Positions 1 to 61,043 of a stretch of DNA of 64,000 nt are shown one piece after another. The stretch is taken from contig CALGLP010000023.1 in NCBI GenBank assembly GCA_937930175.1, forward strand, positions 27,205 through 91,204, written 5' to 3'. The DNA is from an uncultured bacterium (GTDB taxonomy: Bacteria; Omnitrophota; Gorgyraeia; Zapsychrales; Aceulaceae). The notes under the pieces were generated by a model that saw only the letters and a list, made by a program, of their open reading frames with translations, did no database searches and was not told where the DNA came from. The position numbers and the translations under genes were made by a program. Numbering within the stretch: the stretch's first letter is position 1; every line of letters begins with the position of its first letter.

Positions 1-1
1 A

Positions 2-30000: not shown

Positions 30001-33000
30001 TTTGGGCCCAACTTTTTTAAAGGCAGACTTGCGTAAACCTAAAGAAATGATGTCCATGCTGAAAGCCCAGAACGCTCATCTACCTATTATTATTTTAGCG
30101 AATTTGGGGGAATCAGAATATTGGTATGATGGGATAACGAATCAGACCGTGATCAAACTCCTTCCTGCTATTGAGCACTTCACGGGATGTCAGATTAGCG
30201 ATGTTGCCTTCGGCGGATATATTTCAGCTTATGATATTTATACGCAAGGTCTTCCTGAGAAGGCGATCCGAGATGATCAAGAGTTGCTTAAGCGTACAGC
30301 AGGTTTTACTGTTTGTCCTGAAGTCGGGTCAACTGATCTTACCTTTGGCCCTGGTGCCTGGCGCGCTAAGAGGAATGGTCTTTGTTCCTCTGTGATCATG
30401 GCCGTCGGTATCACAGGGCTCGCTGCGGCACTAGCCGGTTTTGGCGCAGAGCATCTGCACGAGCTTCTTGTCTTTGCTCAACAGATTAACGGGCCTGGCC
30501 TGAGTTTTATCGAAGGGCCGGGGTCGGCCCTGGCCCTGGCCGGGGCGCCCTTGCAGGAGTTTTTGGCCGCGGTCAACCCGACGATTTGCCGGTCCGCCTC
30601 GGAAACAGAGGCTGCGCAGACAAAAAAATGGCTCGATTCCATGGCTGCCGATGAACTTTTAACGGTCATTGGTCTTCAAAAAGGCAACGTTTTCAAAGAG
30701 CCACAAGATACCCTCAATAAGCTAAAAATCGTATCGATCCGAACCCCGCGACGTCGCCAACACAATCTTCCCTCTGTTGATGTTTTGAGCCAGCGCATTT
30801 CTTCGTCGGCAATAATAAAGATCCGCGATGCCAAGGATGTTCTAAATTTTGGCGGTAAAGCCGCAAACTCAAGCAAAGTAATAGAGCTAGGGAAGCGCGT
30901 CCCAGACGGTTTCGTGTTGCCTGATGAAATATTTGACGACTCTGTAATGCCAGAGATCGATGCCATCCTTCATGATTTGGCAGTAGATGTTGAAACGCCA
31001 GAGACCATTTTCGCGATATCCCAAAAAATTTCGGAACTTGTCGTTTCAAGAGACTTTCCTGCCCAGCTTCAAGACGATATCATACAAGCCTATCGCATCT
31101 TTAAGAACGGAAGAAAAGATTTAAGAGTCGCTGTCAGGACCAGTGGTATTAAGGAAGATTCTCGTGCTGCTGCATTCGCCGGACAGTTTAAAACCGTTTT
31201 GAATGTCGCCACAGAGGATGAGCTTATCATGGCCATAAAAGAATGCCGAGCTTCATTATGGAGCCCGCAGGCCATTATTTATAAATGGCACAACAGCATC
31301 GACACTAAAATGTGCATTATCGTCCAGGAGATGATACCTGCAGAAACATCGGGAGTTGCTATGAGTGCTGACCCCTTAACGGCCGACAAACACGAGACGG
31401 TTATTCATGCCGTGTGGGGATTATGTGAAGGGGCGGTCAACGGCTCGGTGCCGGCAGATGAGATACGTTATGACAACAAGGCAAGAAAAGTTAATCCGCA
31501 CAGGTCAACCAAGGCCTACAAAGACCGGATGATCGTAGTCTCGCCGACCTCGGGCGTAGAGGAAGTCTCCGTTCCCAAGAAAAACAGGAATAGATGGGCT
31601 ATTGATGGTGAGCAGCAAAAAGAGGTAGCGCAAACTGTTTTGGAGCTGCAAGACGCCTTTGATGGCCCTGTGGATATGGAGTGGAGCTATTACCAGAGAG
31701 AGCTTTTTATCCTTCAGGTCCGCCTCATAACGGCGATCAATGAGAAGACTGCCTTTCCCATTGAGTGGGATGGAGAAGAGGATAAAGCGTTGCAGTGGAC
31801 CTGGGCCCCGTTTATCTTTAACGGTAACGCCACGTTCCTGGAGATTTCAGGGACCAGGCATACCAATGACGGCAATCTGCGGGCCGGAAAAGCCCTTTCT
31901 TTGCCAACGGATTCTATATTCAAGGTTTTCAACGGTTTTACTTACAGGGCGTTATACAGCAATAAGAAAAGCAAGTATCTTGCTCCGTTCTTATGCAAAC
32001 GCCTTGTGCAGAATATGCTTAATTTTATTTTTCCTTATTATCTTGAATTGATCCGGATCTATCCGCGTTGCGTCGGTTCTTTAGGAAGAATTGGCAAGAT
32101 CTTTGATCTACTCTGGGAAAATCAGTGGGACAATCTTCTGCCGGAGGTCAAGCAGAGATTATCCAGACTAAAAGCGATATATGTCGGTGCCGGAGGGGCG
32201 CCTTACTCGGAACTCCATTCGAATGTTCAAGAAATAGCCGATACTGAGACCAAATTTTGGGAAATTAACCGCAGAAGCATAACTTTCATGCGCTACCTTA
32301 ACATTCACTATTTTAAGAAGGCGGATTACGCATTATTGGCCCAAGGATCCGTAACGGCTATCAGCGAGCTGAGGTCCAAGATTGTGGCAATAGCTGATAT
32401 TGTCAAACAAAACAGTGTTTTACATGACGAATTGGCGAGTCGTTTCAATAACGCGGTAGAGTTGAATACCCCCGTAGACATTTCGGGGCTGGACAAGATA
32501 AAGGGCGGTCCGGAATTCTTGATTATGCTGGATAATTTTCTTGATGAGCATGGGGGAGTATGCTCCAATTTCCTGATACCGACTTGGTCCGAAAACAATG
32601 TCGATGTCATAAGATGGATTTTAGCATCTTGCGATATGGAGGAGAGAGCAGGAGATATTAAGGCCAGGGAGCAAAGGATAAACGACTTATTGGCTGTGGT
32701 AGGTCCTATCCATCGACCTCGAGCTAGGTACGAGTTGGAGCTACCCATAAAGATCGAGAGAATTTTTAACGACCACAATTATTATAATAAACAACTGTTG
32801 GCAGGCGGAGAGCGGTTGTTTTTCCTTAAATTAGGCGAGAGGCTGACGGATGAATTTATCTTGGAGTCTTCCGAGCAGATATTTTTCCTTTCATACGAAG
32901 AGATCTTAGATTTGTTACGCAAGAAGTCAGAGGGAGGCGGCATCGAGATCAGCGCCATAAGGGCAAAAATCCGAGAGAGATTTGCTATATGGAATAGCCG

Positions 33001-36000
33001 CAATGCTATGAGGCCACAAATGCATATCGGCAGTATGCATAGTAGAAATCCCGAGAAAGTAACTGCGGTAATCGGAAGACCTAAAAAATCGATAGCTGGG
33101 TGGGCGTTGCTCAATGATTATGCCGTAGAAACTCAGGATGAGGATAGCAAGATATTAAAAGGCCGGCCTGCGTCCCCAGGGATCTATGTCGGCAAGGTCA
33201 AGGTTGTTCTTTATCCGCATGAAAGTAACAAGATCGCGAAAGGCGACGTTCTGGTCTGCAGAACAACTGATCCGACCTGGACAGCATTATTTTCTACCAT
33301 CGGGGCTGTGGTGGCCGATTTTGGCAATGGAGTAACCCAGCATACTGCGATTACTGCCCGGGAATTCAGGATACCTGCTGTCGTAAACACAGGCTCAGCC
33401 ACTAGGCTGTTAAAAGACGAACAGGTCGTTCGAGTTGATGGTTACGAGGGCACAATCACGATTATTTCCTCGCCGGTCCTTCCCGCCCTCTTAACCCTTG
33501 GCCTGATGGGCACGGCGCTGGCAAGTTTTTCGGGCGTATCTGGGGCGGGTGCCATGACCCAGGCGGGGTTGATGGATGCAGGGGTTTGGGCGTGGCTCGC
33601 GGGTTTTGGCACAGAGCATCTTCACGAGCTTCTTGCCTTTAGCCGGGACACCTTGGGGCCGCCGTTTATTTTACAAGCATTTTTCTTTCTTGTGGCCCCG
33701 TTAGACTTCCTGAAAGTTCTTTACTCTCCGTTCACCCAGATATTCCAACCAAAAAAATTCCTGACAGAAAAGCCTTTGGTAAAGGCGGATGAAAATTCCA
33801 GCGAAAACCCCAAAGAAGCCTCGCAGTCCGATTCCCTTTTAAGAGAGCAGCAGGCTCTTGTTTCTGTCGAGCTTGGTATTTATAAAACAAAGGTTATTTT
33901 TTTAGGGGTCAGCGATAAAGGACGCCCGTTAAAACAAAAATTAATGTTTCGCAGTATCTTGACCAAGGATTTGCTGGAAGATACGCGCGTATCCGCTGAA
34001 AAGTTAGGCCGCTTTATCCTCCGCACGACCAAGGAAGCCCGTACTCAAGCTCAGAAGAAAGGCCGGCGGCTAGTCGTTTTACCGGTCTTTAGCTTGGCCT
34101 ACAATGATCGGTTTGATGCCCACAGTGAACGCTTAAGGCAGGACCTTTCCCTCATGCTGGGCAGCCAAGGCATTGTTAAGCCTGATGCGGTGGCGGTGCT
34201 TTCTTACCATTTAAGAAAAATCCTTCCCACTCTGGGGAAGAAAATCAGGGGCCAAAATCTCATTTTTCTTAAGATGTCCGGAGGATTGGGCGGCGGCTCC
34301 ATTGTCAACGTGCACACCCATGATCTTTATGAGAATGAAATTGTCAACCGGCCGGTGGCTGATATTAAGCTTAAAGGGAAAAGCCATCGCATTAAAGTCG
34401 GTTCAAAGATATTCACGCTCATCTTTAAAGGCTCCCAGCCTTTTTCAGCGGGGAATATTATTTCGGGTAAAGGGATCGAAAGAATTTTAAAGAGTATTGA
34501 TTGTCAATTAATGAAAGAAGGGCGTCGGCCTGTCTTTCAGGGGCTGCTTGCCCGGTATCCCAAGAAAAAGGTCGATGGGTATTTGCTGGAGGGGATCATT
34601 TCCAATGAGGTTCATGCCTCGCGTGAGGTGGTGAGCCTTTCGCGAAAAATTCTGGTCTTGATCGGCGAATATTTGGGTCAGTTGATCGTACTTTTGCACA
34701 AAGGAGAATTTGAGTCGTACAAAAAGAAAGACCGTTGGAGCCAAAAGGACAAGACAGAGGTTTCTCGCACACTGAATTTTATCCTAGAGACAAAAGGCGC
34801 GTGCGGTAAGATCATTAAGCAGTCTGCCGCACGGTATTTGAAAAAACATCTTCCTCAAGAGCAGATCTGTCTTGTTCATTTTTTTGATGAGGGAGAATTG
34901 GCAGCCGCAAAAGGGGCAGCCTATTTTATTCCCAGACAGGCTCTCTATGAAGCCCTGATCAAGGCCAAGTATCTTTTGTCCACGGTGAACGCGGGCATCA
35001 ACCGCCAGCAGCAGGTGGCTGAGCATTTTAAGAGCCGGATCATGAACGGCAAGAATGTCGGGCTCAAGAAATGTATTCGTAAGCTAAAGATCGCTTTCAA
35101 ACAAATTTCCGGTGTTGAGATGTATCGTTACCGTCAAGATTGGATCGCGGTTTTAGGCCAGACGATTTTTGCCAAGGAGAGCAACTCACTGCGGGAGGCC
35201 TTGAGCGAAGTAAGTTGTCTTTTAGGGGAGACAAAGTTTAAGGTTAATGAACATGTCTTAGGGTATCTGACGAGATCTCATGATCTTACGGAGCAAGATG
35301 CCGGCAAGTTAAAACTGGTCTTAGATTCTTTAAAGCCCCGTAAGTTTAAGAATCGCCTTAGATCTGGCTATGTTTCTTTACGTTTGCTTGTCAAGCAGTT
35401 GAGTACTGTTAAAAATATCGCGGTTCTTTTGATCTTGATGGGGGCCACCCTGGAGATCTTTGATCAGCTGGTGAATGTCCTAGACGTGATCTCAACGTTT
35501 TCGGGATATTTCTTTAAGTGGATGGGTAACGGTGTGGTTGTGTTGACCCTTTTGGGTTTGATCGCGTATGCTCTTAAGCCATTGTTTCGTCGGATCGTTT
35601 TTAGAGAATACCAATCGTTTGTTAGCCAGGACACGGTTACAAAAGCCGCGCGCAGGATCCGGGTCGCCCCGCTTGACTTTACTCAGGCGGAAGATAAATC
35701 GAGCTATAGCTATTTGGTGTTTAATTCTGTGCCTTTTTTAAGGCAAATAAGAGATATTGTGCACGGCATTATCCGTTATAGCGGTTTTTCGCATGATGGT
35801 TTTTATGGCGTGGAGGATGTTGGTGAGCACGGCAGGACCAAAGGTGAATTCCTAAATAAGTTAGTCATCGATTATTTAGCAACGGGGGCCAGGCAAAGGC
35901 GATGGAGCCGATGGCTGATGGATAAGGTTTTCCGATTTTCGTTGAGCCCGGCGTATTCTTATCGCAAGGGCCAGCAGATCTTAAGCCAGCTATTTGCGAT

Positions 36001-39000
36001 TCTTAAGGAAAAAGGATATACGCAGCCGGCTATTGACCAGATGATCAAGGAAGCGTATTTCCATGGAAAGACACCGGCATTGATCAAGGCCATGGAAGGG
36101 GCTTTTGAGCCGGGGATCTTTTCGTTCTTGGAGAACCGTCTTAACCTTGGGCAAATGGATCAGACCTCTTTTCTTCTTGAAAAGGGGGTTGCTTTAAGAC
36201 AGAGACAGAAAAAAGAGAATAGCGTGTTGTTAACTAGCCTTGTTTCTGAGTTAGGCTCGGAGAAGGCTAGCAGCAGTTGTGATCTAGAGGGGCATGAGCA
36301 TGGCCATCACCACGACCACGCGCATCATCACGCAGTCAATATGCAGACGTTGAAAAAGGTTTGTGCGATTGTCGCCGGCTATATGGTGATCGAATTATTT
36401 GGAGGAATGTTTTTCCGTTCCTTGGCGCTGACCGCGGATGCCGGGCATATGTTCATGGATGCCATGGGGCTTTTGTCGGTGTTGCTCGCGCAGTGGTCCA
36501 CGCAGCGTTGGGATATGCATAGAAAATATAATGGTGTTTCTTGGGCGGAGCTTCTGGCGACGGGTATTAATACATTGATGATCCTGATTATGGCAGGGTA
36601 CGTTTTTGTTGAGTCCTTTGAGCGCTTCGCTCAGCCTGCTGCTGTTGCGGTGTTGCCGGTGTCGGTGATCGCGCTTGTCGGGTTGGGGGTCAATATTATA
36701 AGCGAGAGGATCGTGCATCCACAAAAGGATAACGGGATGGGTATGAAAAGCGTATATGTGCATATTTTTGGTGATTTGCTGATCTCTGTGGGTGTTCTGG
36801 TCAGTATGCTTTTGATCAATATCACCGGAAACAATGCTTGGGATCTTGGGATCAGTTGTGTCATTACGCTTTGGCTTATTTTTAATTCAGGCCGCTTGGC
36901 TGTGGGGATGGTTAAGGCGGTCAAAGGCAAGCATGACGATGAACATCATTGGTATGATGAAGCTTCCGGATTAGGCGATGATCACTCGCATTATCATGCG
37001 AAGCACGAAAAGGCTTGCTCGTTGATCCGCGAGACTAATCTTAGGGCATATGATCTACCTGGCGCGGTCCAAGCCAAGGCCTTGATTGAGCCCACGACCG
37101 TCGACCTTTATGAAAAGACTGAGAGGCCTCTTAAAGCACCGATCGGATTCGAAGTCGAGTTCAATTTGTGCTCGTTAAAGCGTTTTGGCAGCAAAAAATA
37201 CCGCACCCGCATCCGCTCCTTGCCTTGCAAGCCTTATTGGGTGGCGACCGGCATCTTTGAGGTTAGCCCAAAACCTTCTTGGAGTTATCAGACTCAAGTG
37301 GCTATGGCGCAGGCGTTGCTGAATAAACTGGGGATTTTGGTCGAGGATATTATTTCGGTTCAGGTCAATCTGGGCATGCCTTCTAAGATCTGGAAAATAG
37401 TAAGACAGCTTGAGTTCCTTGAGGAAATGCAGAAGATCATGATGGTAACGGCTTTAGGCTTTGTTTCGGCTGAGCGCATTTTAAATAAGAAAACCAGCAA
37501 GGTCGTCGAGCTTCGTCCCGGCCGATGGTTTTTTAGCGAGGCCATGAGCCTTGAGGGTCAACGCTATGTGCGTTTTGAATGCGGATTTGCGGATTGGCTG
37601 ATGATCAATGAGATCGCAGGCATTTTGCAGCATCTGTTCCCGGCCTTGACCGTTTATTGCCGCAGTGATCTTGAGGCTTTGACCGATGATCAGCAGGAGC
37701 TTGCCGGGATCTGGCAGAAAAGGATCCGGGAGCCTTTGCAGTCCCTGGTTGATGAGGTTTTTTTCGCGGCGGATAAAGATTTTCTGATCGACAATGCCTT
37801 GACCTATGTTGCACTGCTGAAGCTTCGGGATGGGAATGAATATTTTCGGCAGGCCAGTCAGCAGATCTTGCGCGATGTATTTAAGGCCTATCAGCAATGG
37901 CGGGAGCGGGCCAAAGATTTAGGAGTATTGGAAAAGACGATTTCGTCTTGTATCTTTGAAATCCCAGTGGCGTCTTCATTTGTCGCTTGGACACCGGAGG
38001 CCTTTGAGATCTATGGCAATAAGGGTGGGCGCAGTTTTGTAGCATTAGCCTTTGCAGGTCAATTTAATGATAAGACTATAGGAAAAAGAGCTCTTTCAAT
38101 CGGCACAGGCCGTTACAATTATCCGGAGCTGGAATTGGCTCTTCGCGGTTGGGATGTTACGGTGGTGAGCCCGCTCACAAAAGAAGAACTATGGAAAACC
38201 CGCTTAGATCCTTGCAATGAGACATATCAGGGCATCCGGCCTGGCGCACTAGGGGCGGTCATTCGACAATCTGGGGGCCGCTATAGGTATATTAATTCAT
38301 GCTTTGAACTTGAAACTCCAAGCCAATATTTTCAAAATGAAAAATTTGATTTAGTGATCATCGCTAATTTCTTAGATACTGGAGGGGGTTCTGAATTTAT
38401 TAGACATGCTTTTAAATCTTTTGTTTCTATTTTAAGCGATGAAGGCCAGATGGTCATTGTTAGCAATCGAATTTGCTCCAGGAGCGAAAATTTTATCAAG
38501 AAACTTAGAAGAAATAATGTTGAGCTTAAGCGGTATCAAGGTCTTCCGTATTATGATCAACTTTTGCACCAAGTGGTTTATGCTGATTACGACGGTAATT
38601 GTTACTGGGATGTTATCTCCAGAGTTCAGTATTTTTATTTTCGGAAATGTCTTTCTTCTGTCATTTTGGTGGTAGATGATGAGGTCAATAATCTTGACTT
38701 AACAGCAATGATTGCAGAGTCTTTGGGCTATGGCGTGGTGAAGGCCGGTAGCGTCGATGCAGCGCTTGGGATCTTGCGCCGACAGAAGATCGATGCGGTT
38801 GTTTCGGATGTCAATATGCCCGGCTTAAGCGGTATTGATTTGGCACGTATTGTTGCCGAAAAGTTTCCTTTGGTTCCCGTCATCTTGATGACAGGGTGGG
38901 TGGCCGCGGACCAAAAAGAAGAGATCGCGCAATTGAAGTTAAAACTGATTTATAAGCCGATTGACCCCGATGATCTTCAAAAAGCGATTGAGAAGGTATT

Positions 39001-42000
39001 TTTAAGAAAGTCATCAAAAACCTCTTCGCCGGCGGTTGACCCTGAAGGACTAACGATATTTTTATTGGGGAGAGAGGGGGTCTCTTCATCAATCGCCTGG
39101 TCTCTAGAGACGATTGTCGGAGGAGATTTAAATGCTCGTTATTTAAAACGTATCTGCGAAATTATTAACACTCATGATGATGAGGAAGAACCAAGGGACC
39201 ATGGGCGAGAAAAGGTGGCGTTCTTGATTGGGCCGGCCGCTGATTTTTCGACGGCATGGTTAGCGACTCAAGCTTTGAAGTTCATTTTTATTGAGAAATT
39301 GCCATTGCATGTCACGTTGGACACTGTCCTAAAGAGAAATATCCAGGAGTTGATGGAACATGCTTTTATGTTGAGCATGATGTCAGCGCTCGGATCAGGA
39401 GATTTGCCTAATTTCGATCTGTTTCTTTATATGAATGAAAAGAAAATTATTGATTTGTATTGTATGGAAAAAAGTTTTCAGGGCTTCATCACTGATGAGT
39501 TCTTGGGGATCTGTGGAGGCGTGTGGCCATTTCTTAAGAAGGAAATCGAGATTGCCACGCGCGATTCTTCTGATCATATCAGCCCTGCGGCAAGAGAGGA
39601 TGATCCCAGGGTTTTTGATTTGAATTTTAGACTAAACAACAGGGAACACTCCTTGGTTTTTATGGAAAAGACAGATGGATTGGACGTCAGCAATTATGCA
39701 AATTATCTAAGGCTCTTTGGTGGCGTTGATTTTATTATCATTAAGGCCGGCGATGTTTATTTAGAGAATAAGAAATTTTTGCTGCCTGGACAAATCGTTG
39801 AGGAGTTCTTAAGGCCCGGAGGATTTGTCATTCTCGACAGCAAGAGGGCTCTTCAGCAGGGCCAAGCGGTTCGCGATTTACTGATACCTGTGGAAGATGA
39901 CGTACTTTTGAAACTGGAAAGGCAAGGGGCTGTTTTTGGTTACAATGGTCCTCTTTATAATGAATCAAAGAGCGGGGCATATATTTTTAAGAAGAAAGGC
40001 TCCATATCTTCGGCGGTAGCTTCTTCAGTGCTCGATATTCCTTCGGGCCGGGGAACAAGCTTTAAGATTTTATTGCCAGTTGCCAAAGAAAGCCAACAGA
40101 AAGAATCTTTTTGTCTGACGGGTGTCAAAGAGGGCAGGGCAACCAAGTCTAAAAACTCCGGATCACCATTAACTTTGTCTACGATCTTCGTTCTAGGCCT
40201 GGTCAGTTTAATGGGGGCAAGCTTGGCGGGATTGTCTGAGCCGGGCGCGGTTGCTCATGTGGGATTAATGGACGCAGGCGCTTTGCAGTGGTTGGAGGGT
40301 TTTTGGTCAGAGCATGTGGCGGCGGTGTTGTCGGCGGTATTTCCTAATGGGCCGGGGGAAGGGGTTTTGGTTTATGGCGCCTTTGCTTCTTCTCACCTTT
40401 TTGTTCTTGCCCTTCTTTCTCTTCTCATCGGATCTTTAATTTTTATATTTTTATTCCATCGCAAAAATCACGACCAGATTGCTTACCCTGAGATCCAGGG
40501 CATGGATTTTATGTCGGTTGTACGTTATTTTTTGCCTCAGGGCGATCTGACCCTCACTGATGTCGGAGCCGGGAATAACCGTTTTATTGAATCAGTAAGA
40601 GAAGATCTAGATAATGCTTTTTCGCTTTTGGTTGGCTTTGATAACAAGACCCCGGGCTATAAAAAGTATTGCCCCCACTCCCAAGAAGTTATTTCCCTTT
40701 CTCTTCAAGAGGCAGCTGGAGATCCAGACTATCAAGAATATTCTAACGTTGTTACCGTAAATGCGCCAGACGTGCATTTTTACGATGATCTTGTTCCTTG
40801 CGTGATGTGCTTGCTCAAACGGCAAGGCGTTGGCTTGATTTTTGTGAAGTTGGCTCCCAAGGATGGTTGTTATATCAAGAATCTGATGCATCAGATGCGG
40901 ATTTATGGGGCACAGCCGATTTTGCTCAAAAACCTTCAAGGTTATCCCAAGACTTTTTATACTGATGACAGAACTCCGGTCGTTTTGGGTGTAGTTCACT
41001 GGAGGCAGAAAGGATCTTGTTCGGCGAGCGTCACAGAGGATATGACTGTTGCTAACGCAGACGGCCTTTCTGCGCAAAAGAATTGTTTTTTTAAAACGAG
41101 ATGGCTGATCGCGTCTATCACTTGTACAAAAGTTCTATTGATGACTTTTTCTTCATTGATCAAAAAAAATAAAGTTCTTTTGCTCAGTGGTTTATTATTC
41201 TTTTTTCCTAACGCGGCGCTGGCTTTTGTTGGGACCGGCCCTGAGGATTCCTTGGGAAGCCTGCCTGAGGCCAGTTATTGGCTAGTAGAATGGATGTTGA
41301 GCCAACCGCTCTGGCTGGCGCTGGGCAAGATCTTGACGCCCGTTCTCGTGATCGCGCTTTTTTTAGCCAGGGCCAGGCGATGGAGGGTCTCGATCCCTGA
41401 GCCGGTTCAAGAGGCGTTGGGGATTCAGCCGAAATCTCGCGCGTCCGCGTCATCCAGCAGGCACGGATTGTTTTTCTCATCCTTGGGACCTTCCAACGCC
41501 TTTGATGATCAGGCTTACGAGACGCTTGTTAACAAGGGTTTTATCGTTCAAACCATTGCTCAGAGACGGTTTCTTTTTATTCTTCGCGTTTTTGACAAAA
41601 CATCTCTTGTACGCCGGCATCCGCAGAAGGTCTTTATGATCGATATAAGAGATATTGATGACCGAAAGCGTGTTGCACGTTTTGATTTTGTTTTTGATCT
41701 TGCTGCTCAAAGAGCTGTTGCAGATACGGCTTATGTCGAGTATCGCTTTTTAAAAGGATACGAGGAGTCGTTAGATCATCTTCATAGCGAGGGATATCGC
41801 GTTGCCCTTAAGGTTCTTGATAAGGCGCGCGATGTTTTCTTTTCGACTCGAGGATTAAGCTATCCTGTGAGCATCGATATTGCTGACGATTATCGCAGTT
41901 CAAAGAAAAAAGGCAATTATCAGTTTTTCACAATTCTTTTTAAAATATTCTTTTCTTTGGCTCATCAGCAGGGCATACAATCCTTTAAAGCGGTGCCGCT

Positions 42001-45000
42001 CAGAAAATCTCTTTTTGATCGGATCTTCGAGTACATCATTCTTCCTAAAAAGATAAGCCTTTTTCAATTTTATCAGAGAGCGATCCCTTTGCCGTATCAG
42101 AAGAAGTGGTCTTGGGATTTATACCCGTATTTAATTTTTGATCTTTCGGATATGCCTTCTGCGCTTGTCTTTTCTTTAAGTCCTGCCGGCACCAAGACTG
42201 AGGCGTTAACAACGTCTTCGGTGATACACCCAAAGAGCGATTCTGTCTATGCTCTGGAGGTCAGGGATTTCGACGGCGCGCCTGAGGCCCGGAACAAAGC
42301 TGCTAGGCTGCGAAACGCTCTTCTGAAGGCTGATATCCCTTTTGTTCAGAAGAAAAGCTTTGAAGATCTGCCCTGGAAAGCAATCACCAAGTGTATTGGA
42401 GAGCATGAAGGCCCTGTGATGACCTGGATCATTTTCGGGGGACTGTTTCGGGCTTGTTTACGAAAAACGATCAAAAAGATTATAGATCTTTGCTCTAAGC
42501 TATCGGGTCAGACGACGAGGATCGTTTTGCCTTTGTTTGCTATGAATCACCTTTATCGTTATGAATTGACGAGCGAGTCAAGCGAATTTCGTGCTTATAT
42601 GCAAGTTAGTGAAATTCCTCGCTTGATCGAGGCGCATTCCAAGGAAGGCTTGATCACAACAGGGAAAGAACCTTGGCTTAATGCGGATGGATATTATTTT
42701 ATGTTTGACTATGACGCAACCAAACAGCAGGTCGTGATCCGTTGTAATGGACAGATTTTACGTGTTTTAGGAGACGAGGCTTCAACCAAGCATACTGTGA
42801 TTCTTGATTTTGTGATGACATTGGAGGGTTTTAATAAAGTTATGGAACAAACCCAGATTACGGCTGTGAATGTCGATGGTAAAGAGGTAGGCAAGTTAGC
42901 GCAAGAGCAAGAATTCGGATCCCCATTAGTACTTCCAACCATTTTAGTCTTAGGCCTCATCGTCTCTGCGCTGGCAAGTTTGCTGGGCTTCTCGGAGCCC
43001 GGCGCGGTTGCTCACGCGGGATTGGGGGATGCGGGGGTTTTGCAGGGGTTGGCGGGTTTTTGGTCAGAGAATGTGGCGGTAATGTTGTCAGCAATATTTA
43101 CCAATGGGCCGGGGGATTTGGTAGCGATGAGCTTAGGGCTTTCTTCGGTTTCGCCTAGCCTTTTATTATTTAAGGAAGACAATGCTATTGGACCAGGCCA
43201 TTTAGTTAATGAGCACGCGCCTTTGGAATTAACAGACATGATTCAGCCAGGGTTCTTGACTCCTGGACTGGTCGTTGTTCATAGCGATGATATTCTCCAG
43301 GAAGTACTCTATATATACAGCGAATATAATTTTGTGGGGGCTGCAGGAACGCTTGCGGTGTATCTAAAGCGTTCACGCTGGATCAATCTTTATCCGCGGA
43401 TATTCGCCTATCTTGATAGAGTTCTTCCTGAATCTTATGAAAGGATTGTTTTAGTTAGATCCTTTGAAGACCCAGAAAGGGTAAAGCACGAGATCCTTCA
43501 TGATCTTGTTGAGTTATCTTCACAAGTAGACTCCCGTCCTTTTGAAAGTCTTATTGAAGCTTTCAGTAAGATTATGGAAGAGGATAAAAATTTCAATGAA
43601 AAATTTCATGAATTCCTGTGTCCTAATGGAGCATGTGACACAGGGATGAACGTGGAGCATTTTATTTGTTATTTCTTTTCTGGCCAAAGGTCTCACGATT
43701 GCTCCGAGGAATACCTTTCCTTTACTCGTACTTATCATTATGAAGAACTTTATGATTATTTTTTGCATCAAATGCCGCGCGAAATTATTGATTTATTTGA
43801 TCAGCTTGGTTTAGTCTGGCCGGATGGTAGTGATGTTGATCAAAATGCTGGGGACACGCAAGAAACATTTAGCATATCTAGTCCCCGGATTGCTCATCGT
43901 ACGGGTGTGTGGGAGCTTGAAGAGGCGGGCAAGCCCAATGATCCCAGGGAAGATGTTTCTTCGCCGATCTCACGGGAAGACTTCATCGATAACTATCTGA
44001 CATCGCTCGGCAAGCATTGGGCAGACTTAGCGCCGAAGATGAAGCCCCTTCTACTTAAAAGGTTGATAAGTCTAGAAGCCGGGGCTGATTATTATGTGCA
44101 AGACAAAGAGGCTTTTGCCGCGCTTGCCGACCTCGGCATAGCGAGTGCCCATATGTTCATGCTGTTGTTGCGCACTAGGGCGCGTCCTGACGTCGAAAAA
44201 GAGGTCCTTCTTGAGAAAAACATCATCGAGGGTAACTATGAGCCTGTATTTCAATATTTCGTCAATTTATATAAATATCCCAATGAAAGCGACACCTTTT
44301 CTAGGTATCAATCTGCTGTTGTCAGATATGCGATCCTCCTTGAGGGCGATACGGTCGTCAAAGCCCCGCGTGATATTGTTGCCTACATTAAGGACATTGT
44401 CATTAACGAGTTTATAGGCTCAAGGGAAGAAATCTATTGTGGATCAGCTTACGGCCAGTGTGACCTTTATCCTCGGGCTGCTGTTAATGAGGCGCAGCAA
44501 TATTTTGAACGACATTTTCTTGAGTATTATGGAGTGGCTTTTCCGGTATTGCTCGCCGATGTCGTTGTTTTCACGAAAGATGTAAATAAATGTTTTTCGT
44601 CTCAATCAAAGATCGGCGTGGCTTATTCCTCGCACGACTCCTCTAAAATATATCAAAAGGTTGTTCCTTCTCTCATAAGGAAGATCTTCCACGAAGCCCT
44701 GCATTTGGCTTTGCCGTACAGCTTTAATGATTTTTACGCCTTGAGAATTTTTGATGAGGGTCATATAAGATATGAAACGGACGAATTTACCTGGTTCGTC
44801 GATCCGCAGAGTTGCCATGTTGACGATGGCATAGCCGACGATATATATTTTCCTCATCGCCGCTTATTCGTATCTCTGCAGGAAATCGTCGGCAGAAACA
44901 ACATCATTAAGATGAGAATGGAAGGAAAGATCGGCCCGTTGGTCGCCGCCTTGGGCGCTTACGGGAATGAATTGATGATGCTGTTTGAGTATGTTCAGGC

Positions 45001-48000
45001 TACGAAGAAAGAAAGGCTGGGCCTTGAAGTTGGCAGCGGCTACACGGAGACAGCGCCCATCGACGATTCCCAAGAGCTCCTTTTGAATAGGAATTCTCCG
45101 GAGATGCTTCTTCAATTTATCGAAAAGGAGGAAGCGGTCCTAAGTGCTCAACGGCCTGATTGGCAGGAGCGTAATAAAAAAGGAACAATATTCGATCCGT
45201 GCTTTAAAGGTCGGCTAGCGGCTTCCTCGCCAATTCTTCCTTCTGTTCTTATGCTTGGCCTGATCGTCTCTGCGCTGGCAAGTTTGCTGGGATTGTCGGA
45301 AGTCAGAACCACTATTCACGCCGGAATTCTTGATATAGACCCTATGGACTTTGGCTATATTTTGCGGAGTTTAGTCAGAATCGGGTTGTTCACCGCAGGC
45401 GTAAGTTTGTTATTTGAGAATATTATCTTAAACTTCTCTGGAAATGTTTATGAGAAATTCTATAAAAAGACGCGCATGGGCATTCTAAACGCCCGGGATA
45501 TTGTGCATGCCGGTGAACTGGGGGCGCGAGGATTTTTTATCGGGTATCAACGATGGTTTAGACGCATCGGCGCAAAAGATCTCACCAAGAATTTTGTGAT
45601 GTTGTTAGCGACAGGGAAATCCTGGGAGATCGCGTATCAGAAGATCGCGGATAGCTTAGATTCTTGGGAGACTCCGGAAACCCAGCAATGGCTTAAGAAG
45701 CAGGGCATTGACCCCAGGATCAAGCCAGACCCCAGCCGCATGGTTGTTTTTCATTTGGATACGGTGATCCCGCAACAAAGAGAGGACTATTTTTCCTTCT
45801 CAAGGACCCTTGGTATTGTGTGTGATACGTTTCATATCCCACAAGCGAAAGCGAATCGTTTCTTTTGGTATGGGGATTGGACGTTGGATGATCAAGGTAA
45901 TCTCGTACAGATGTCCCCCGAAGAATTTTTTTCTCTTAAAGACGATATTCACTCTCGTGGGTTTAAGATCAAGGATTTTTTATCAGGGCAGATGCCTTGC
46001 GAGGACGCACAATATCGCTTTTTGTCCGCCATGGAACAGCAACGACAGAAGACCTCTGATCAATATCGTGCATTGGGCGGCGCTGATTTTGTGGCATACA
46101 GTTTTGGGCCGTCGTATCAGGGTAAGGGGCATGTGGCCTTTGTGGAATCCATGGATGAGGTACGGGATCAAGCTTTCATGGATTTGGGCGGGTATCATTT
46201 TGCCGCCAGTCAAGCCTCTCAAAATGGAGGTTTCAGCCGCACCGTTGGCAAGCACGGTTTTGTGACTTTTTCGATCGCGGATATAACGTTTAATCCTGAG
46301 GCGTATTTAGTGGGCATTGTGACGGATCATCATAAATCTTCAACGGTGCGTATGGCTGTTGAAGGAGATATCGCAAAGGATTTTCCGCGCTATCCGGCAA
46401 CCGGTTTGCAGAGATCTCAGGGGGTCTTGATCTTGACTGATGAATCCGCGCGTGATCTGCGCGACCGAAGGCATCCCTGGGACTTTCGTGTACTAAAAAA
46501 ACCTGAATGGACTGAAGAAATGCGCCGGACATTTTTGATCCGCTTGTCTCAAGAAGCTGGCAAGCCTTTGACACAAATCATGGATAAAGATTTTATTGAT
46601 CCCGAAAAAGATCTTCCTGGACCCGTCCTAAGGATACGGCGGAAGAATTTAAAAATATTCAAAAGTTTTGGATCCTTAAAGTCGCAGGGTCAGGCGTATA
46701 TTCAGTTTGTCATGGATCATATGACAACCACGGCGCCGCAGGCCTTAGCGGAGAAACTTTGGGGGAGAGAGCGCATTCATTCTCTTGAGTTCATCGCGGC
46801 TTCGCTCGATTTTTTAAGAAATCAATATGAACAATGCCTATGTTATGGTCATGATGGATCCAATATCCAAGAGCTGATCCAGTCAGAAGAGAAATCATTA
46901 GCGTCAAAACAAATTACTATTTTATTGAAAGATCCTCATCCTGATGATAGTTTTCTCGCCCTGCTCATTGGTTTTCTTAGAAATCTTATTGCCAAGGGTT
47001 ATGTTAGAGCCTATGCCATTTGCGCGACCACAGGGGCCGAGGCGGTGAGCGATGTATTGGTTGTGCAATTTCTAGAAACCATGCGCTCCTGGGATCAAGA
47101 AACCATCAACCAAGCCTTTGATCTTGATCGTGGAGAAACAACGAAGCAATTGTTACAAGACGCCATGGCCCAAGAAAAACCCAGTGATGTTTTAAGTTAT
47201 GATGTGCAAAGTAAGATGACCGCAACGGGATGGCATTTACGAACAAAACTTATTTTTAATTATTTGTTCGTTAAGCGATTCGAATATCAACATGCCCCGC
47301 CAAAACAAGAACTTCAAGAATTTTTAGACAAGTTGATCGCCGAGATCGAGGCCAAGCCAGATTGGGGAGCTCGGGATAGTGAAGAGATTGTCTATATGAA
47401 AAGCATTGTTCGCGTGATCGAGAATAAAACTGCTATGATGGCCCTAGGGCTTCCTTATGAAAACATTTTTGATCCGATGAATTTTTCTTGGTATCAGTCT
47501 GGGGTCAAGGATGGGACAGCGCGCGATCAAGACGTAGAAAGGCTGATCAATGTTATTAAGGGCATAGGACGCCTGGATATGATCATTGGTAATGGGGAGG
47601 GTTTTCGGTCTTACGATACGCATGCGACCGTTGAAGCCATGGTGATTGCGGCGTTGTTAAAGTTGTTGGAGCAAAAATGGATCGACCCGAAAACGTTTCG
47701 GTATTTCACTTATGAAGGCGTGTGGAAGAGAAAGTTGCTAGAAGAAGCAAATCTCACTGTTCTTTATTCTCAAGAAGAGATCGAGGAATTTGATCGGATG
47801 TTCTTAAATCTTTATCCATCTCAAGTGCCTGCAGAAATGCTGGATGCTTCTCAGGAAAGAGTGATGCTGTTTTCACAAGCCGTTGTTCAACATGGGAAAA
47901 AAACAATCAAAGAATTGAGAAGAGTTTTAGGGTCTCACAAGGTTGACGAGGTTCTGCCTCGCGCTAAAATGGCGCTTCATTTTAGAGTTTTAAGGTTGTC

Positions 48001-51000
48001 AGACCCAAACGATCTAAACACAATGCCCCAGAAGATCGAAGAACTTGAAAGGGTTCGTGGGCCCTTGGAAAGGGTCAGTCCGTTAAAGCTTTATGGACCG
48101 TTACCAGGTTCTATTTTAGAAAAAGAAATTGGTAAGAAATCTATAAGCTCACCTACACAAATTTCTTATTGTGCTGTCCAAGGTGAATGCGAGGGCCGAA
48201 GTATGTGGTTTAAGATTTTGCATGCCCCTTGGACCATGGTTCACGTTATCGGCAATCTTGCGCAGGCCTTTTTGACAGGGCGACGAGCAGATATAGAAAA
48301 AATAGATCTCTTGGCTGGTATTACCTATAAAAATCACGCACCTCCTTGTTATGGGGGTATGATGGCGAATATCCTTGCATGTGTTGCAGTTCTTTATTTA
48401 AGTTCTTTTTGGTTGCTTAGGTTTTATGCCATTGTGCATTTTGTTTTTGCCGCAGCTGAAATTTATTTTCATTATTTTTCTTTTGATAAGATTTTTTCTG
48501 ATCTTGATTTCGAGATTCATGAAGACCTTGAGCAAGACCCCCAAGCAAAAGAAAATTTAGAAGCATTTGTTCGAACATTGAAGGATCAATACTTCTTTGT
48601 TGTTTATCCATGGGATGGAGACTTCGATAGCGCGAGACGATTTATGATGGAAAACGGTTTTAATGCGCAAGTCATCGAGGATGCGCGTTGGTCGCTTAAA
48701 GAATTGTGGGATAACATTGATCAAATGAACAACCCGCACCATGATCTGCTTGCTCGCTATAGCGTTGATAGCGTATTGGCATTTCGCTTGATCAATATAG
48801 CAGGTGAGTTTTATATTGAATTTTTAGTCGTCGATAATGGCCCTGGTTTTGACGATATTGAACAGGCTGTTATGACAACTTATACATCAAAGATTTTGAC
48901 TGGTCAGCGCGGCTTGGGGCTTCCTGGTTGCGCTCGAAGAGCATTGTTTCATCAAGGCGGGTTATCGATTGCGTCCAGAGGAGAGGAGTTTATTATTGAT
49001 CGGTTAATTGATCTGAGTTCTTTCGTCCACCAAAGACCAAGGCTAACGATCGTTCAAGTCTTTATGCGTGCTCTGCGCGAGCATTTATCATGCGCCATAG
49101 GGCCATTATTATTGATCTTATTTTCTAATCAGATCTTTTTTAATGCTTGGGGTGATGCGCTGGTCCGTAATACCCTGACCGGAGCTGTGACGGGATTTTT
49201 GGGTCAGTTGCTGGCTGGATATGTTGCCAAGAAAGAATGGAATATTTTCAATGCTTTTGGCATGGGTGTTTTAGGTGCGACATTTGGTTTTCAGATTCAT
49301 TATGGTTTTAAGATCATCAATCAAATCGTTCCTTATAGCGCAGATCTTTTAGCGCAGGGGTTAAGGACTTTTTTGATCAGCTGTATGGGATTAGCGACGT
49401 TGTTGCAGACAAGTGTTTGGCGTCATGTGGCTAGGATGATTCAAGAGAGATTTTCTAAGAATATGATGAAGGACCCTCATTATTCTGCTCAAGCCCAAGT
49501 GGCTAAAAATATTGATTCGATCGTGATCCTTTTTGCTTTAGGCGTAGGTACGAATTATTTGTCTCAACTATGGGATAGCCCGCTGTTTTATATGACATCG
49601 GGGATGGCGGTTTTTATTTTGCATCGGTATTTTGATGAGCGCATGAGTCCCGTGTTGAATATGATGTCGCGGGCGTATCGGATAATAGATTTTCTTTATC
49701 AGAAATGGTGCGTTGGTAATCTTTTGGCTGTGCAAGTATCTTTACGAGTGCGTGAAAGATTCCTCTTTTTTTGTAAGCTTTTGTTGTTTTCGAAGAAAGC
49801 GAAACAAGGCCAATATGCCGGTGTTGTTGTGCAGGGAGTTTATGAGAGGGTTTTTGAAGGCACGGAGCGGCCTTTTGAGACTGTTGAATCCTTAAAGGTT
49901 TTCATTCAAGTTTATTATGATGATTTTGTCGGAAACACGCTGAATTATCTATCTGCCTTGGCTGAGCTTAAGACGTTATTAGGAGAGATAGGAAATAAAG
50001 AGGCGCGGCTTATTTGGAAGATCGTTAAGGATGTTGATGAGAGTATTATCAATGATTTTGAAGAGATAAGAGAAAGTAAAACACCTAGGGAGTTTGTTGT
50101 AAAGGCTCTTTCTTATCAGACGTCGCATATTCGCTTAGCAAGATCTTTAGTCAGGAAGATGATCAGAGCGGACCTTGTTTGTCCTGAATTTTTAGGATGC
50201 GCATATCAGTATTTGCACGAATCGCAAAGATTTTATAAGCAGCTTGAGCAAGGCATTAAGGATGTTATTGGCAAAAAGTTTCGAACACCCCGGACAAACA
50301 CCTTGCTTTTGACCGGCGAGCTTCAACGTGAAGAGGAAAGCCGTAGCTTATCGCCATTTCAGTCTTCCACCGCGCAGGGCTCCTCCGTGCTCGGTCATCT
50401 TTCTGAAGAATTTTCTCTTAAATTTCCTTTCTTACGGCATTTTTTAGTGCCTCCGGTTCAAGTACAACCCGTGCTTGAAAGAAATAGTTCAGAACGTCAA
50501 TTCAACCTTAAGGGGCAGATGTCTGCTGCAGCATGGCATCGGGAACGTGGCGAAGAATATGTGGCTTTGGAGCTTGAAGATCTGATCAACGTGATCCGTA
50601 AGATCCCGGGTTGCCCTAAGGAAGGCAGCGATGATGATTTTGTACTTGCTCATCGTAAGCCCGAAGGCAGGATCTGGTGGGATATTGAGGGCGGAGAGCC
50701 AAAAGTTCGTAGGATCTTGGAAGAGATATGCCAGTTGCATCCTTTTGTCATCGACGCATTGATTCAGCAGGTGTACGTTAATCTGACGCAGTCGAATTCT
50801 TATCATGCAGTTGTTAATCAGGGGTGCGTTTTCTTGTTTAAAAAATATCTCAAAGAGAGCACTCAAGAAGATCTGTTGTTTGGCTTGCCCTTGACGGTTG
50901 TATGGCAAAATAAAATGTTTCAGCTGGATCATCAATCGCAGGCCGCAGTTATCGAGCGGGGAATGCAGACGGCTGTTGATAGGGTGATGGCTGCAGTCTG

Positions 51001-52867: not shown

Positions 52868-52883
52868 GGATCGCTACTTCTTT

Positions 52884-52909
52884 TTGTTTTTTTCTTCCTT
52901 TTCCGTTAT
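52884..52909 (+). promoter_or_regulatory. Putative sigma-70-type promoter giving a near-leaderless transcript for the U32 peptidase gene
   Basis: TTGTTT, 17-nt spacer, TATACT (52904-52909), then ATG at 52919. There is no Shine-Dalgarno here, although neighbouring genes carry strong AGGAG sites. Confidence 0.25.
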
Positions 52910-52918
52910 ACTATCTTT

Positions 52919-54151: not shown

Positions 54152-54167
54152 TAGCGCAGGAGAGGCC

Positions 54168-55844: not shown

Positions 55845-55906
55845 CCTTGCGTTTGGCAAGCATGTTTTCTAAAGTCGAAATCTTGAAAAAGAGGAAAGGG
55901 TCACGT

Positions 55907-58425: not shown

Positions 58426-58493
58426 GCTTTATACTAATAAGAATATTAGAGCTGTTTTCAAGAATCAAGGCAAGAGTCAAAAGAGAAAACCGC

Positions 58494-58521
58494 TTGCATT
58501 TCTTATCGTCGCTATTATAAT
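58494..58521 (+). promoter_or_regulatory. Putative sigma-70 promoter for the DUF212 gene. The -10 element abuts a perfect palindrome TGATAA-A-TTATCA (58521-58533), a possible operator.
   Basis: TTGCAT, 16-nt spacer, TATAAT. A 6-1-6 inverted repeat overlaps the -10 and the predicted TSS. Confidence 0.4.
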
Positions 58522-58573
58522 GATAAATTATCATAAGGCTGTTTAAGCGTCAAGATATAAACAAGGAGCTCTT

Positions 58574-59029: not shown

Positions 59030-59063
59030 AGAACGTTGACCATATTGTCATAAGGAGAAGACC

Positions 59064-59882: not shown

Positions 59883-59894
59883 GAAGGTATTTTT

Positions 59895-60878: not shown

Positions 60879-60992
60879 AGATATTGGGAATGAAAAATCA
60901 AGATACAAGAAGTAATAATCAATGACGTCTATGCGGTGGCTTGTCATTGGCGCTTGGAATTTGAAATTTTCTTGGTGATTGTATCTTGCCTG

Positions 60993-61025
60993 CCTGCCGG
61001 TAGGCAGGGTAATTTGTTGTTTTAA
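60993..61025 (+). terminator. Probable Rho-independent terminator after accA
   Basis: Stem CCTGCC/GGCAGG with loop GGTA, followed by a T-rich run TAATTTGTTGTTTT. Confidence 0.45.
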
Positions 61026-61043
61026 TCTTTCAATTCATCCGCG

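What the first reader, a model, noticed from the sequence alone, without database searches (positions are those of the whole stretch)
35400..49640. Additional clusters of hydrophobic helices imply a highly polytopic topology
Besides the CDF domain and the six repeat copies, hydrophobic segments occur at ~35410-35590, 40390-40470, 41100-41390, 45350-45440, 48340-48480 and 49050-49640 (the last ~6 helices). That gives more than 25 putative TM helices interleaved with soluble enzyme-like domains, so the protein probably threads the membrane repeatedly, with modules on alternating sides, or forms a very large membrane platform.
Basis: seen in the sequence. Interest (0 to 1): 0.5.

Follow-up and report, generated by a model that had tools for sequence, protein, structure and literature searches.

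The report
Membrane-anchoring helix pairs in giant protein
The hydrophobic stretches are real and most look like membrane-spanning helices, but they sit in closely spaced pairs or even-numbered bundles, so this giant Omnitrophota protein (at least 17,600 residues) is probably stapled to the inner membrane with its enzyme modules all in the cytoplasm, a layout already reported for such proteins.

Summary
The range lies inside one open reading frame (nt 2-52867, at least 17,588 aa) that runs off the window's 5' end. Homologues and syntenic loci are labelled Omnitrophota, except L005, whose record title reads Planctomycetales.

- **Observation.** Hydrophobic segments occur at all six listed places. 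Strictly defined TM-like segments number 15 against 3.8 in shuffles, and 10 of them lie in the range.
- **Weak calls.** One of the three helices at 41100-41390 is weak and not conserved. Five of the six helices at 49050-49640 are no more hydrophobic than buried helices of the protein's own soluble domains.
- **Pairing.** Candidates are paired: 8 gaps of 60 aa or less against 2.2 expected. The pair loops hold 3 K/R in 203 aa against 25 expected.
- **Modules.** The cation diffusion facilitator (CDF) transporter domain and a conserved C-terminal six-helix cluster both show an N-in/C-in charge pattern.
- **Parity.** The cytoplasm-type domains (receiver, NagB-like, HATPase-like) are then separated by even helix counts.
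- **Reading.** This is a membrane-tethered, mostly cytoplasmic platform. Modules on alternating sides are not supported.

Two preprints already report many TM helices in giant Omnitrophota proteins. This is a new member of a known kind. No trained topology predictor could be run, and both AlphaFold models failed.

The parts
2..52867 (+). Giant ORF (at least 17,588 aa in the window; runs off the 5' end)
   Evidence: One search lists the ORF. Searches show P0003/L008 at 99.9% identity, extending it upstream. One search shows independent assemblies identical over 48751-61052 and 50545-54216.
33479..33721 (+). Repeat copy C: TM1 (33479-33541), 39-aa loop with 1 K/R, partner helix (33659-33721). 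It starts 10 residues after the end of the PEP-utilising mobile domain.
35411..35578 (+). Helix pair aa 11771-11790 and 11806-11826. N flank has 7 K/R in 25 aa, the loop has none, C flank has 5 K/R.
36356..36910 (+). CDF transporter membrane domain: six helices, with HxxxD in TM2 and TM5.
   Evidence: PF01545, E 2e-24. TIGR01297 at 111 bits against a cut-off of 82. One search shows the K/R alternation and the motifs.
38663..38992 (+). Response-regulator receiver domain, used as a cytoplasmic marker.
   Evidence: PF00072, E 3e-19. Also.
40169..40456 (+). Repeat copy D: TM1 (40169-40234), conserved 53-aa loop with no K/R, and TM2 (40394-40456), the strongest helix of the ORF.
   Evidence: P0004 has the same module with a TM2.
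41102..41161 (+). Weak hydrophobic segment aa 13668-13687, probably not TM.
   Evidence: Central Lys and Eisenberg 0.44. Not hydrophobic in orthologue L004.
41174..41368 (+). Helix pair aa 13692-13711 and 13735-13756. Loop has no K/R and 4 D/E; flanks have 5 and 6 K/R.
   Evidence: 54% identical to L004g 2161-2234.
42929..43171 (+). Repeat copy E: TM1 (42929-42994), 40-aa loop with no K/R, and a degenerate partner (43115-43171, KD19 1.48).
45233..45433 (+). Repeat copy F: TM1 (45233-45298) and a borderline partner (45371-45433).
46040..46600 (+). Glucosamine-6-phosphate-deaminase-like domain, used as a cytoplasmic marker.
   Evidence: NCBIfam PRK02122, E 1.6e-27.
48356..48490 (+). Adjacent helices aa 16086-16107 and 16109-16130; the second is weak.
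48806..48991 (+). HATPase_c-like domain (DNGPGF and GLGL boxes), below Pfam's cut-off.
   Evidence: E 4e-4. Conserved in P0002. Weak SpoIIAB match.
49082..49636 (+). Conserved C-terminal six-helix, Gly-rich cluster. It has no known family, and it is the C-terminus of the protein in the orthologues.
   Evidence: 82% mean column identity. K/R 10-17 in 'in' loops against 1 in 'out' loops, in all three sequences. Searches find no family. Searches show the ORF ending there in the orthologues.
49637..52864 (+). Extra C-terminal module of about 1,060 aa, absent from the syntenic orthologues and homologous to the C-terminus of P0004.
   Evidence: Junction confirmed in NCBI contig L009.

Best explanation
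The range is part of one giant Omnitrophota protein that is integrated into the cytoplasmic membrane many times. Each membrane module has an even number of crossings.

**Module types.**
- Helical hairpins: two helices joined by a periplasmic loop of 1-53 aa that lacks Lys and Arg. Five of the six copies of the lineage-specific repeat supply the first helix of such a hairpin.
- A six-helix CDF metal transporter.
- A conserved six-helix bundle, which is the protein's C-terminus in the orthologues.

**Consequence.** Every module returns the chain to the cytoplasm. The long soluble stretches therefore stay on the cytoplasmic face: PPDK-like, receiver, NagB-like, HATPase-like and the unannotated ones. 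The whole forms a membrane-tethered platform.

**Insertion (inference).** Only short acidic or neutral loops need to cross the membrane. Co-translational insertion could therefore be of the SRP/YidC/SecYEG hairpin type, with no translocation of large domains.

**Shown or inferred.** Shown: the segments, their pairing, the charge bias, partial conservation, and the domain identities. Inferred: actual membrane insertion, orientation, and the insertion route.
For: - **Enrichment.** Strict TM-like segments number 15 against 3.8 in shuffles, and 10 are in the range. Twenty non-CDF candidates exceed the hydrophobicity of every recognised soluble domain of the same protein.
- **Pairing.** With KD19 of at least 1.6 and the CDF excluded, 8 of 25 gaps are 60 aa or less. 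Random placement gives 2.2, P about 6e-4.
- **Positive-inside.** The nine pair loops total 203 aa with 3 K/R against 25.4 expected (P 7e-9). The flanks hold 69 K/R in 450 aa against 56 expected.
- **CDF.** K/R alternates 1|0|3|1|3|0|3, as expected for the family's N-in/C-in topology. The HxxxD motifs in TM2 and TM5 are intact. The domain is above the TIGR01297 and Pfam cut-offs.
- **C-terminal cluster.** 'In' loops plus tail hold 10-17 K/R and 'out' loops hold 1, in the window protein and in two orthologues. It is the most conserved part of the protein.
- **Parity.** Receiver, then 8 helices, then NagB-like, then 2 helices, then HATPase-like, then 6 helices. All counts are even once aa 13668-13687 is dropped and aa 14339-14357 is kept.
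- **Homologues.** The hairpin 13692/13737 is 54% identical in L004. P0004 has the repeat module plus a second helix followed by RQQR, and a further tight pair.
- **Cassette.** Strains 99% identical differ by an in-frame cassette of about 310 aa. It holds one hairpin plus a Bac_transf domain (PF02397), whose N-terminal helix is, from established knowledge of monotopic PglC-type enzymes, re-entrant. That is again an even number of crossings.
- **Literature.** The 'TM-only, cytoplasmic-face' reading was already proposed for 46% of long Omnitrophota proteins.
Against: - No trained topology predictor could be run. The helix limits were set by hand from hydropathy, and loops defined next to uncharged helices are partly biased toward few charges.
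- Copies C, D and E of the repeat share ancestry, so their loops are not independent.
- Several second helices are weak: aa 14339-14357, 15091-11 and 16109-30. Parity depends on accepting them.
- Five helices of the C-terminal cluster are no more hydrophobic than buried helices of soluble domains.
- Outside the range, two strong singletons break parity (aa 8266-8289 and repeat copy B at aa 10093-10113). Both look N-in/C-out.
- Copy A pairs with an upstream helix rather than a downstream one.
- One homologue pair (P0001) has a K/R-rich loop.
- Both AlphaFold models were unusable, with pLDDT 36 and 53.
- The N-terminus is unknown.
- There is no protein-level evidence that the ORF is made as one chain.
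Confidence: 0.6

Rival explanations
1. Alternating topology. Single helices, not pairs, cross the membrane, so that long modules lie by turns in the cytoplasm and the periplasm. An example would be aa 14299-15044 and 15112-16085 lying outside.
For: - The weak partners (aa 14339-57, 16109-30, 15091-111) may not be TM.
- Dropping aa 14339-57 and 16109-30 also gives a parity-consistent path.
- West-Roberts et al. report TMHMM placing most domains of such giants outside.
- The singletons at aa 8266 and 10093 suggest that real single crossings exist.
Against: - Copy F of the repeat would have to be inserted upside-down relative to its homologues D and E, although its N flank is K/R-rich (5 in 25) like theirs.
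- The NagB-like sugar-phosphate domain would lie outside.
- The pairing statistics and the K/R-free loops would be unexplained.
- West-Roberts et al. themselves call some of those outside placements highly unlikely and the TM predictions at times unreliable.
Confidence: 0.12
2. Mostly soluble. Only the CDF domain and a few very hydrophobic helices are in the membrane. The other segments, above all the C-terminal Gly-rich cluster and the weak partners, are buried helices of soluble domains.
For: - Weak and moderate hydropathy classes are not enriched over shuffles.
- Helices C2-C6, aa 13668-87 and aa 14339-57 fall inside the range of the protein's own soluble domains.
- A LOG-domain motif in the orthologue scores KD19 1.70, so false positives do occur.
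Against: - Twenty non-CDF segments exceed every soluble domain.
- The C-terminal cluster shows a conserved K/R alternation with a period of one helix in three sequences.
- True CDF helices 2 and 6 score just as low.
- The strict class is four-fold enriched.
Confidence: 0.1
3. Processed polyprotein. The repeat modules act as internal signal-anchor and cleavage sites: a positively charged flank, a hydrophobic core, then small residues such as ALA|S. The ORF would be cut into separately anchored proteins. This is compatible with the hairpin topology before cleavage.
For: - Three of five full copies, and P0004, carry A-x-A before an invariant small residue at the outer end of helix 1.
- The module often sits at borders of homology blocks.
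- West-Roberts et al. raise cleavage as a possibility for other giants.
Against: - The uncharged run is 22-28 aa, which is anchor-like rather than signal-like.
- Copies A and D lack a good -3/-1 pattern.
- No cleavage predictor or proteomic data were available.
- No relative was found in which the ORF is split at a module.
Confidence: 0.08
4. Not one protein. The ORF would be an assembly chimera, or a decaying gene that is not translated.
For: The middle of the ORF (nt 5211-48750) is held only by the window. Giant genes are often mis-assembled.
Against: - There is no in-frame stop in 52.8 kb.
- Both ends are reproduced at 99.97-100% identity in four independent assemblies.
- Syntenic orthologues keep the same order of blocks.
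- The catalytic motifs of the CDF are intact.
Confidence: 0.03

Closest known systems
Giant multi-enzyme, TM-rich proteins of Omnitrophota (West-Roberts et al. 2023, bioRxiv 10.1101/2023.11.21.568195; 'TM-only' class in bioRxiv 10.64898/2026.06.07.730766)
   Same: - Homologues and syntenic loci are labelled Omnitrophota, apart from L005.
- The protein exceeds 10,000 aa and mixes metabolic and regulatory Pfam domains, including a PPDK domain.
- It has many TM helices. The preprint reports a mean of 22 and a median of 16 for proteins of at least 10 kAA.
- The 'cytoplasmic-face' reading has already been proposed.
   Different: - No SecA_DEAD, dockerin or C39 domain was found in the window part.
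- No secretion or pilus genes lie downstream.
- TM density is about 3-4% of residues, against about 2% in the preprint.
- The pairing of helices, the charge analysis, an embedded CDF transporter and the six-copy hairpin repeat are not mentioned in either paper.
Helical-hairpin membrane insertion, as in M13 procoat and ATP-synthase subunit c (YidC-type substrates; established knowledge)
   Same: Two hydrophobic helices are joined by a short loop without positive charge, and the flanks are positively charged.
   Different: The units here are repeated many times inside one chain of about 18,000 aa. Some loops are 40-53 aa and conserved. Insertion has not been tested.
CDF transporters (ZitB/YiiP type)
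   Same: Six helices, HxxxD in TM2 and TM5, a His-rich N-terminal flank, and a score above family cut-offs.
   Different: The domain is embedded in the middle of a giant protein. The match covers only the membrane domain (profile positions 3-190 of 285), so the usual cytoplasmic C-terminal domain was not detected.
Monotopic phosphoglycosyl transferases (Bac_transf PF02397, PglC type), seen in the orthologue only
   Same: In L004 and L007 a Bac_transf domain with its hydrophobic N-terminal helix follows the hairpin that is homologous to aa 13692-13756.
   Different: It is absent from the window protein. It is present or absent as an in-frame cassette among near-identical strains.

Membership tests
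Giant TM-rich Omnitrophota proteins (as described in the two preprints) | Encoded in an Omnitrophota genome | tested here: met
   The closest homologues and one syntenic locus are labelled Candidatus Omnitrophica/Omnitrophota. One related bin, L005, is labelled Planctomycetales. The window's own taxonomy is not given.
Giant TM-rich Omnitrophota proteins (as described in the two preprints) | Predicted protein of at least 10,000 aa from one uninterrupted ORF | tested here: met
   17,588 aa in the window, with at least about 470 more upstream.
Giant TM-rich Omnitrophota proteins (as described in the two preprints) | Numerous predicted TM helices | tested here: met
   About 26 robust and about 7 ambiguous helices by hydropathy. 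DeepTMHMM was not run.
Giant TM-rich Omnitrophota proteins (as described in the two preprints) | Divergent SecA_DEAD domain (present in most giants of West-Roberts et al.) | tested here: not met
   No Pfam SecA hit at E of 0.01 or less over the whole window ORF. The missing N-terminus was not examined.
Giant TM-rich Omnitrophota proteins (as described in the two preprints) | Type II/IV secretion or pilus genes in the flanks | tested here: inconclusive
   None among the ten downstream ORFs scanned against Pfam. The upstream flank lies outside the window.
Cation diffusion facilitator family | Match above the curated cut-off, six helices, and the metal-site HxxxD motif in TM2 and TM5 | tested here: met
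   PF01545 at 86.9 bits (cut-off 26.6) and TIGR01297 at 111.4 bits (cut-off 82.35). The motifs are visible.
   Helices are paired or lie in six-helix bundles. The counts between cytoplasm-type markers are even.
Sec-type cleavable internal signal sequences | Short hydrophobic core (7-15 aa) followed by small residues at -3 and -1 | tested here: inconclusive
   An A-x-A pattern occurs in 3 of 5 copies, but the uncharged run is 22-28 aa. No SignalP was available.

The most novel reading that the evidence does not exclude
These giant proteins may be built from topologically neutral membrane cassettes: hairpins, hairpin plus monotopic enzyme, and six-helix bundles. Such cassettes could be gained, lost or duplicated in frame without flipping the rest of the chain. 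The six-copy, lineage-restricted hairpin repeat has a conserved periplasmic loop free of Lys and Arg (GL-x-DAGV-x-QWLAGFW). It may have a specific role, either as an internal signal-peptidase processing site (a bacterial membrane polyprotein) or as a self-association 'staple' that gathers distant parts of the chain.
Probability: 0.1. Interest if true: 0.75.

Novelty: new member of a known kind. Interest (0 to 1): 0.3.

Why it matters
- **Predictor conflict.** The 2023 preprint notes that TMHMM and DeepTMHMM disagree on giant Omnitrophota proteins and that some predicted outside placements seem highly unlikely. This case gives a simple rule: paired helices, K/R-free loops and even-numbered modules. 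The rule places the recognised enzyme and signalling domains in the cytoplasm, and it removes the need to export huge domains.
- **Testable insertion route.** It makes the open question of how such a chain is inserted testable, with small hairpin-reporter constructs.
- **Limits.** It does not change the general picture already published, and it does not reveal the protein's function.

Tried and rejected
- **Wimley-White scale.** The octanol scale with threshold 0 gave 250 regions against 295 in shuffles, so it was uninformative and was dropped.
- **Hessa sum.** The plain sum at 2.0 or less found only 3 of the 6 known CDF helices, so it is too strict.
- **AlphaFold2.** The model of aa 16080-16530 (2-sequence alignment) had pLDDT 36. 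The model of repeat copy D (5-sequence alignment) had pLDDT 53. Neither was usable and no fold search was run.
- **Family searches.** Pfam at E up to 1, NCBIfam and a PDB profile search found no family for the hairpins or the C-terminal cluster.
- **Homologue searches.**
  - The three word-index searches found one protein each.
  - The exhaustive profile search of the repeat found the protein itself, one real homologue and one spurious repeat protein.
  - The genome and metagenome scans gave four loci from two closely related taxa.
  - Deep alignments were therefore impossible.
- **SSP motif.** I considered an 'SSP' linker motif as a general domain boundary. Its enrichment comes mainly from the repeat copies themselves, four of the six matches.
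- **N-terminus.** The apparent start of P0003 is translated Illumina adapter.

Full report
**What is there**

The finding's range lies inside a single ORF listed as 101..52867, 17,588 aa. The frame is open from nt 2. An independent contig (L008/P0003) is 99.98% identical to window 1-5210 and carries at least about 470 further N-terminal residues. Its own start is Illumina adapter, so the true N-terminus is unknown.

Both ends of the ORF are reproduced at 99.97-100% identity in four other assemblies. These cover nt 48751-52867, which holds the last hydrophobic cluster. Downstream genes are ordinary bacterial ones: U32 peptidase, ComM, YkuD, AccA and RlmN.

The domains found along the ORF are these:
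- sigma-70 regions 2 and 4;
- ARMT1-like;
- enoyl-CoA hydratase;
- methyltransferase;
- PPDK_N plus the PEP-utilising mobile domain;
- a CDF transporter;
- a receiver domain;
- a NagB-like domain;
- a weak HATPase_c.

The nearest homologues are partial proteins labelled Omnitrophica/Omnitrophota. The syntenic loci come from an Omnitrophota MAG, a related bin labelled Planctomycetales (L005), and two JGI metagenomes.

**Checking the observation**

Every listed place holds hydrophobic, helix-length segments. I had no trained predictor, so I used three published scales and internal controls.

- A strict class gives 15 segments in the ORF against 3.8 per shuffle. It requires KD19 of at least 1.9, or a Hessa sum of at most 2, plus an uncharged run of at least 18. 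Ten of the 15 lie in the finding's 27% of the protein.
- Weaker classes are not enriched.
- Recognised soluble domains of the same protein never exceed an Eisenberg 21-residue mean of 0.54. The CDF helices score 0.50-0.78, and twenty non-CDF candidates score at least 0.59.
- Four soluble neighbour proteins have no KD19 window of 1.6 or more, while the neighbouring membrane proteins do.

By place:
- 35410-35590 holds two helices.
- 40390-40470 holds one, the best in the ORF.
- 41100-41390 holds two good helices and one weak one. The weak one is not hydrophobic in the orthologue.
- 45350-45440 holds one borderline helix.
- 48340-48480 holds one good and one weak helix.
- 49050-49640 holds one clear helix and five ambiguous ones.

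'More than 25' is about right: roughly 26 robust helices including the CDF, plus about seven doubtful ones.

**How the helices are arranged**

The candidates are not scattered. With the CDF excluded, 8 of 25 gaps between KD19-defined segments are 60 aa or less. Random placement gives 2.2 (P about 6e-4).

The nine pairs have loops of 1-53 aa. These total 203 aa and hold only 3 Lys/Arg against 25 expected (P 7e-9). The 25-aa flanks are slightly enriched, at 69 against 56. This is the positive-inside signature of hairpins with both ends in the cytoplasm.

The CDF shows the alternation expected of its family and keeps HxxxD in TM2 and TM5. It is therefore probably a working, membrane-inserted transporter.

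The C-terminal cluster (aa 16328-16512) reads as six helices. Its 'in' loops and tail hold 10-17 K/R and its 'out' loops hold 1, in the window protein and in both orthologues.

All recognisable domains between the membrane modules are cytoplasm-type. The helix counts between them are even: receiver, 8 helices, NagB-like, 2 helices, HATPase-like, 6 helices. This holds if aa 13668-87 is dropped and the degenerate partner aa 14339-57 is kept. That partner sits at the position of TM2 in copies C and D of the repeat.

**The repeat**

The 'six repeat copies' are a module of about 65-95 aa. It has a K/R-rich flank, helix 1 (LP-x-IL-x-LGL...ALAS), and a conserved loop free of Lys and Arg (GL-x-DAGV-x-QWLAGFW-x-EH). 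A second helix follows clearly in copies C, D and F and weakly in E.

A profile of the module was searched with HMMER against 1.84 billion representatives. It found only this protein itself, one mosaic homologue (P0004, which also has a second helix followed by RQQR), and one spurious hit. The module is therefore confined to a narrow lineage.

**Relatives**

In the syntenic orthologues (L004, L006 and L007 at over 99% to each other; L005 at about 85%) the giant ORF keeps the same order of homology blocks. It ends about ten codons after the six-helix cluster, followed by the same U32 and other genes.

That cluster is by far the most conserved part of the protein, at 82% mean column identity. 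It matches no Pfam, NCBIfam or PDB family.

The window protein carries an extra C-terminal module of about 1,060 aa, related to the end of P0004.

The hairpin at aa 13692-13756 is 54% identical in L004. There it is followed by a Bac_transf domain. This hairpin-plus-enzyme unit of about 310 aa is present in L004 and L007 but absent, in frame, from L006 (99% identical) and from L005. From established knowledge, the N-terminal helix of PglC-type Bac_transf enzymes is re-entrant. The cassette would then again be topologically neutral.

**Interpretation**

Best explanation (confidence 0.6): this is a membrane-tethered, mostly cytoplasmic megaprotein held by hairpins and even-numbered bundles. Only short loops without positive charge cross the membrane, which suits hairpin-type co-translational insertion. 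That last step is inference.

The caveats are these:
- The helix limits were set by hand and several second helices are weak.
- Outside the range, two strong singletons (aa 8266-8289 and 10093-10113) break parity.
- Copy A pairs upstream rather than downstream.
- One homologue pair has a K/R-rich loop.
- Both AlphaFold models failed.

The rivals are an alternating topology (0.12), mostly buried soluble helices (0.10), a processed polyprotein (0.08) and an artefact (0.03).

**Comparison with what is known**

West-Roberts et al. [quoted passage not shown] They also say the predictions are unreliable and that some outside placements seem highly unlikely.

A 2026 preprint ran DeepTMHMM on 916 long Omnitrophota proteins. 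It reports a mean of 22 helices for proteins of at least 10 kAA. It also describes a 46% 'TM-only' class read as anchored on the cytoplasmic face, with the insertion route unvalidated.

This protein fits that class, so the finding is a new member of a known kind. Neither paper mentions helix pairing, charge-bias analysis, an embedded CDF or this repeat. These are modest additions, not a new category.

**Verdict**

Interest is 0.3.

Noticed in passing
window 1-101 and L008 1-1490: The giant ORF is open from nt 2 and continues upstream of the window. Contig L008 adds at least about 470 residues, but its first ~50 nt are Illumina adapter, so the annotated 'MLFRS' start of P0003 is an artefact.
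   Followed up: yes
window 49637-52864; L004 10425-10455; L005 3925-3955: In syntenic orthologues the giant ORF stops just after the conserved six-helix cluster. The window protein has an extra C-terminal module of about 1,060 aa, homologous (33% identity) to the C-terminus of the 3,354-aa mosaic protein P0004.
   Followed up: partly
L004 ORF aa 2172-2480 (and L007) versus L006 and L005: Strains 99% identical differ by an in-frame cassette of about 310 aa that holds a TM hairpin plus a Bac_transf (PF02397) sugar-transferase domain. This is module-level presence/absence inside a giant gene.
   Followed up: partly
window 46040-46600: A glucosamine-6-phosphate-deaminase-like domain (NCBIfam PRK02122, E 1.6e-27) that Pfam did not report.
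   Followed up: no
window 49082-49636: The Gly-rich six-helix cluster is the most conserved part of the protein (82% column identity) and has no Pfam, NCBIfam or PDB match. It directly follows a SpoIIAB-like HATPase domain. It may be an undescribed membrane domain.
   Followed up: partly
window 21848-26566: There are large internal duplications: aa 7250-7560 resembles aa 8292-8597 (50% identity), and spectrin-like repeats lie at aa 7566-7954 and 8603-8822. In addition aa 3749-3977 resembles aa 12319-12541 (32% identity). A lone strong hydrophobic helix (aa 8266-8289) sits at one duplication border.
   Followed up: no
window 10750-11250, 38663-38992, 48806-48991: A sigma-70 region 2/4 domain, a receiver domain and an anti-sigma-kinase-like HATPase domain lie in the same polypeptide. 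This is regulatory parts fused into one chain.
   Followed up: no
window 54027-55841: A polytopic membrane protein of about 560-605 aa with no Pfam family is kept next to the U32 peptidase gene in all orthologous loci.
   Followed up: no
window 40199-40234, 42959-42994, 45263-45298, 33509-33541: Near the outer end of helix 1, repeat copies C, E and F (and P0004) carry A-L-A|S or A-A-A|W, which is a signal-peptidase-like -3/-1 pattern. Copies A and D do not.
   Followed up: no
L004 ORF aa 428-446: The LOG-family motif FPGGFGTLSLLFEVI scores KD19 1.70. This is a concrete example of a buried soluble helix passing the classic 1.6 threshold.
   Followed up: yes
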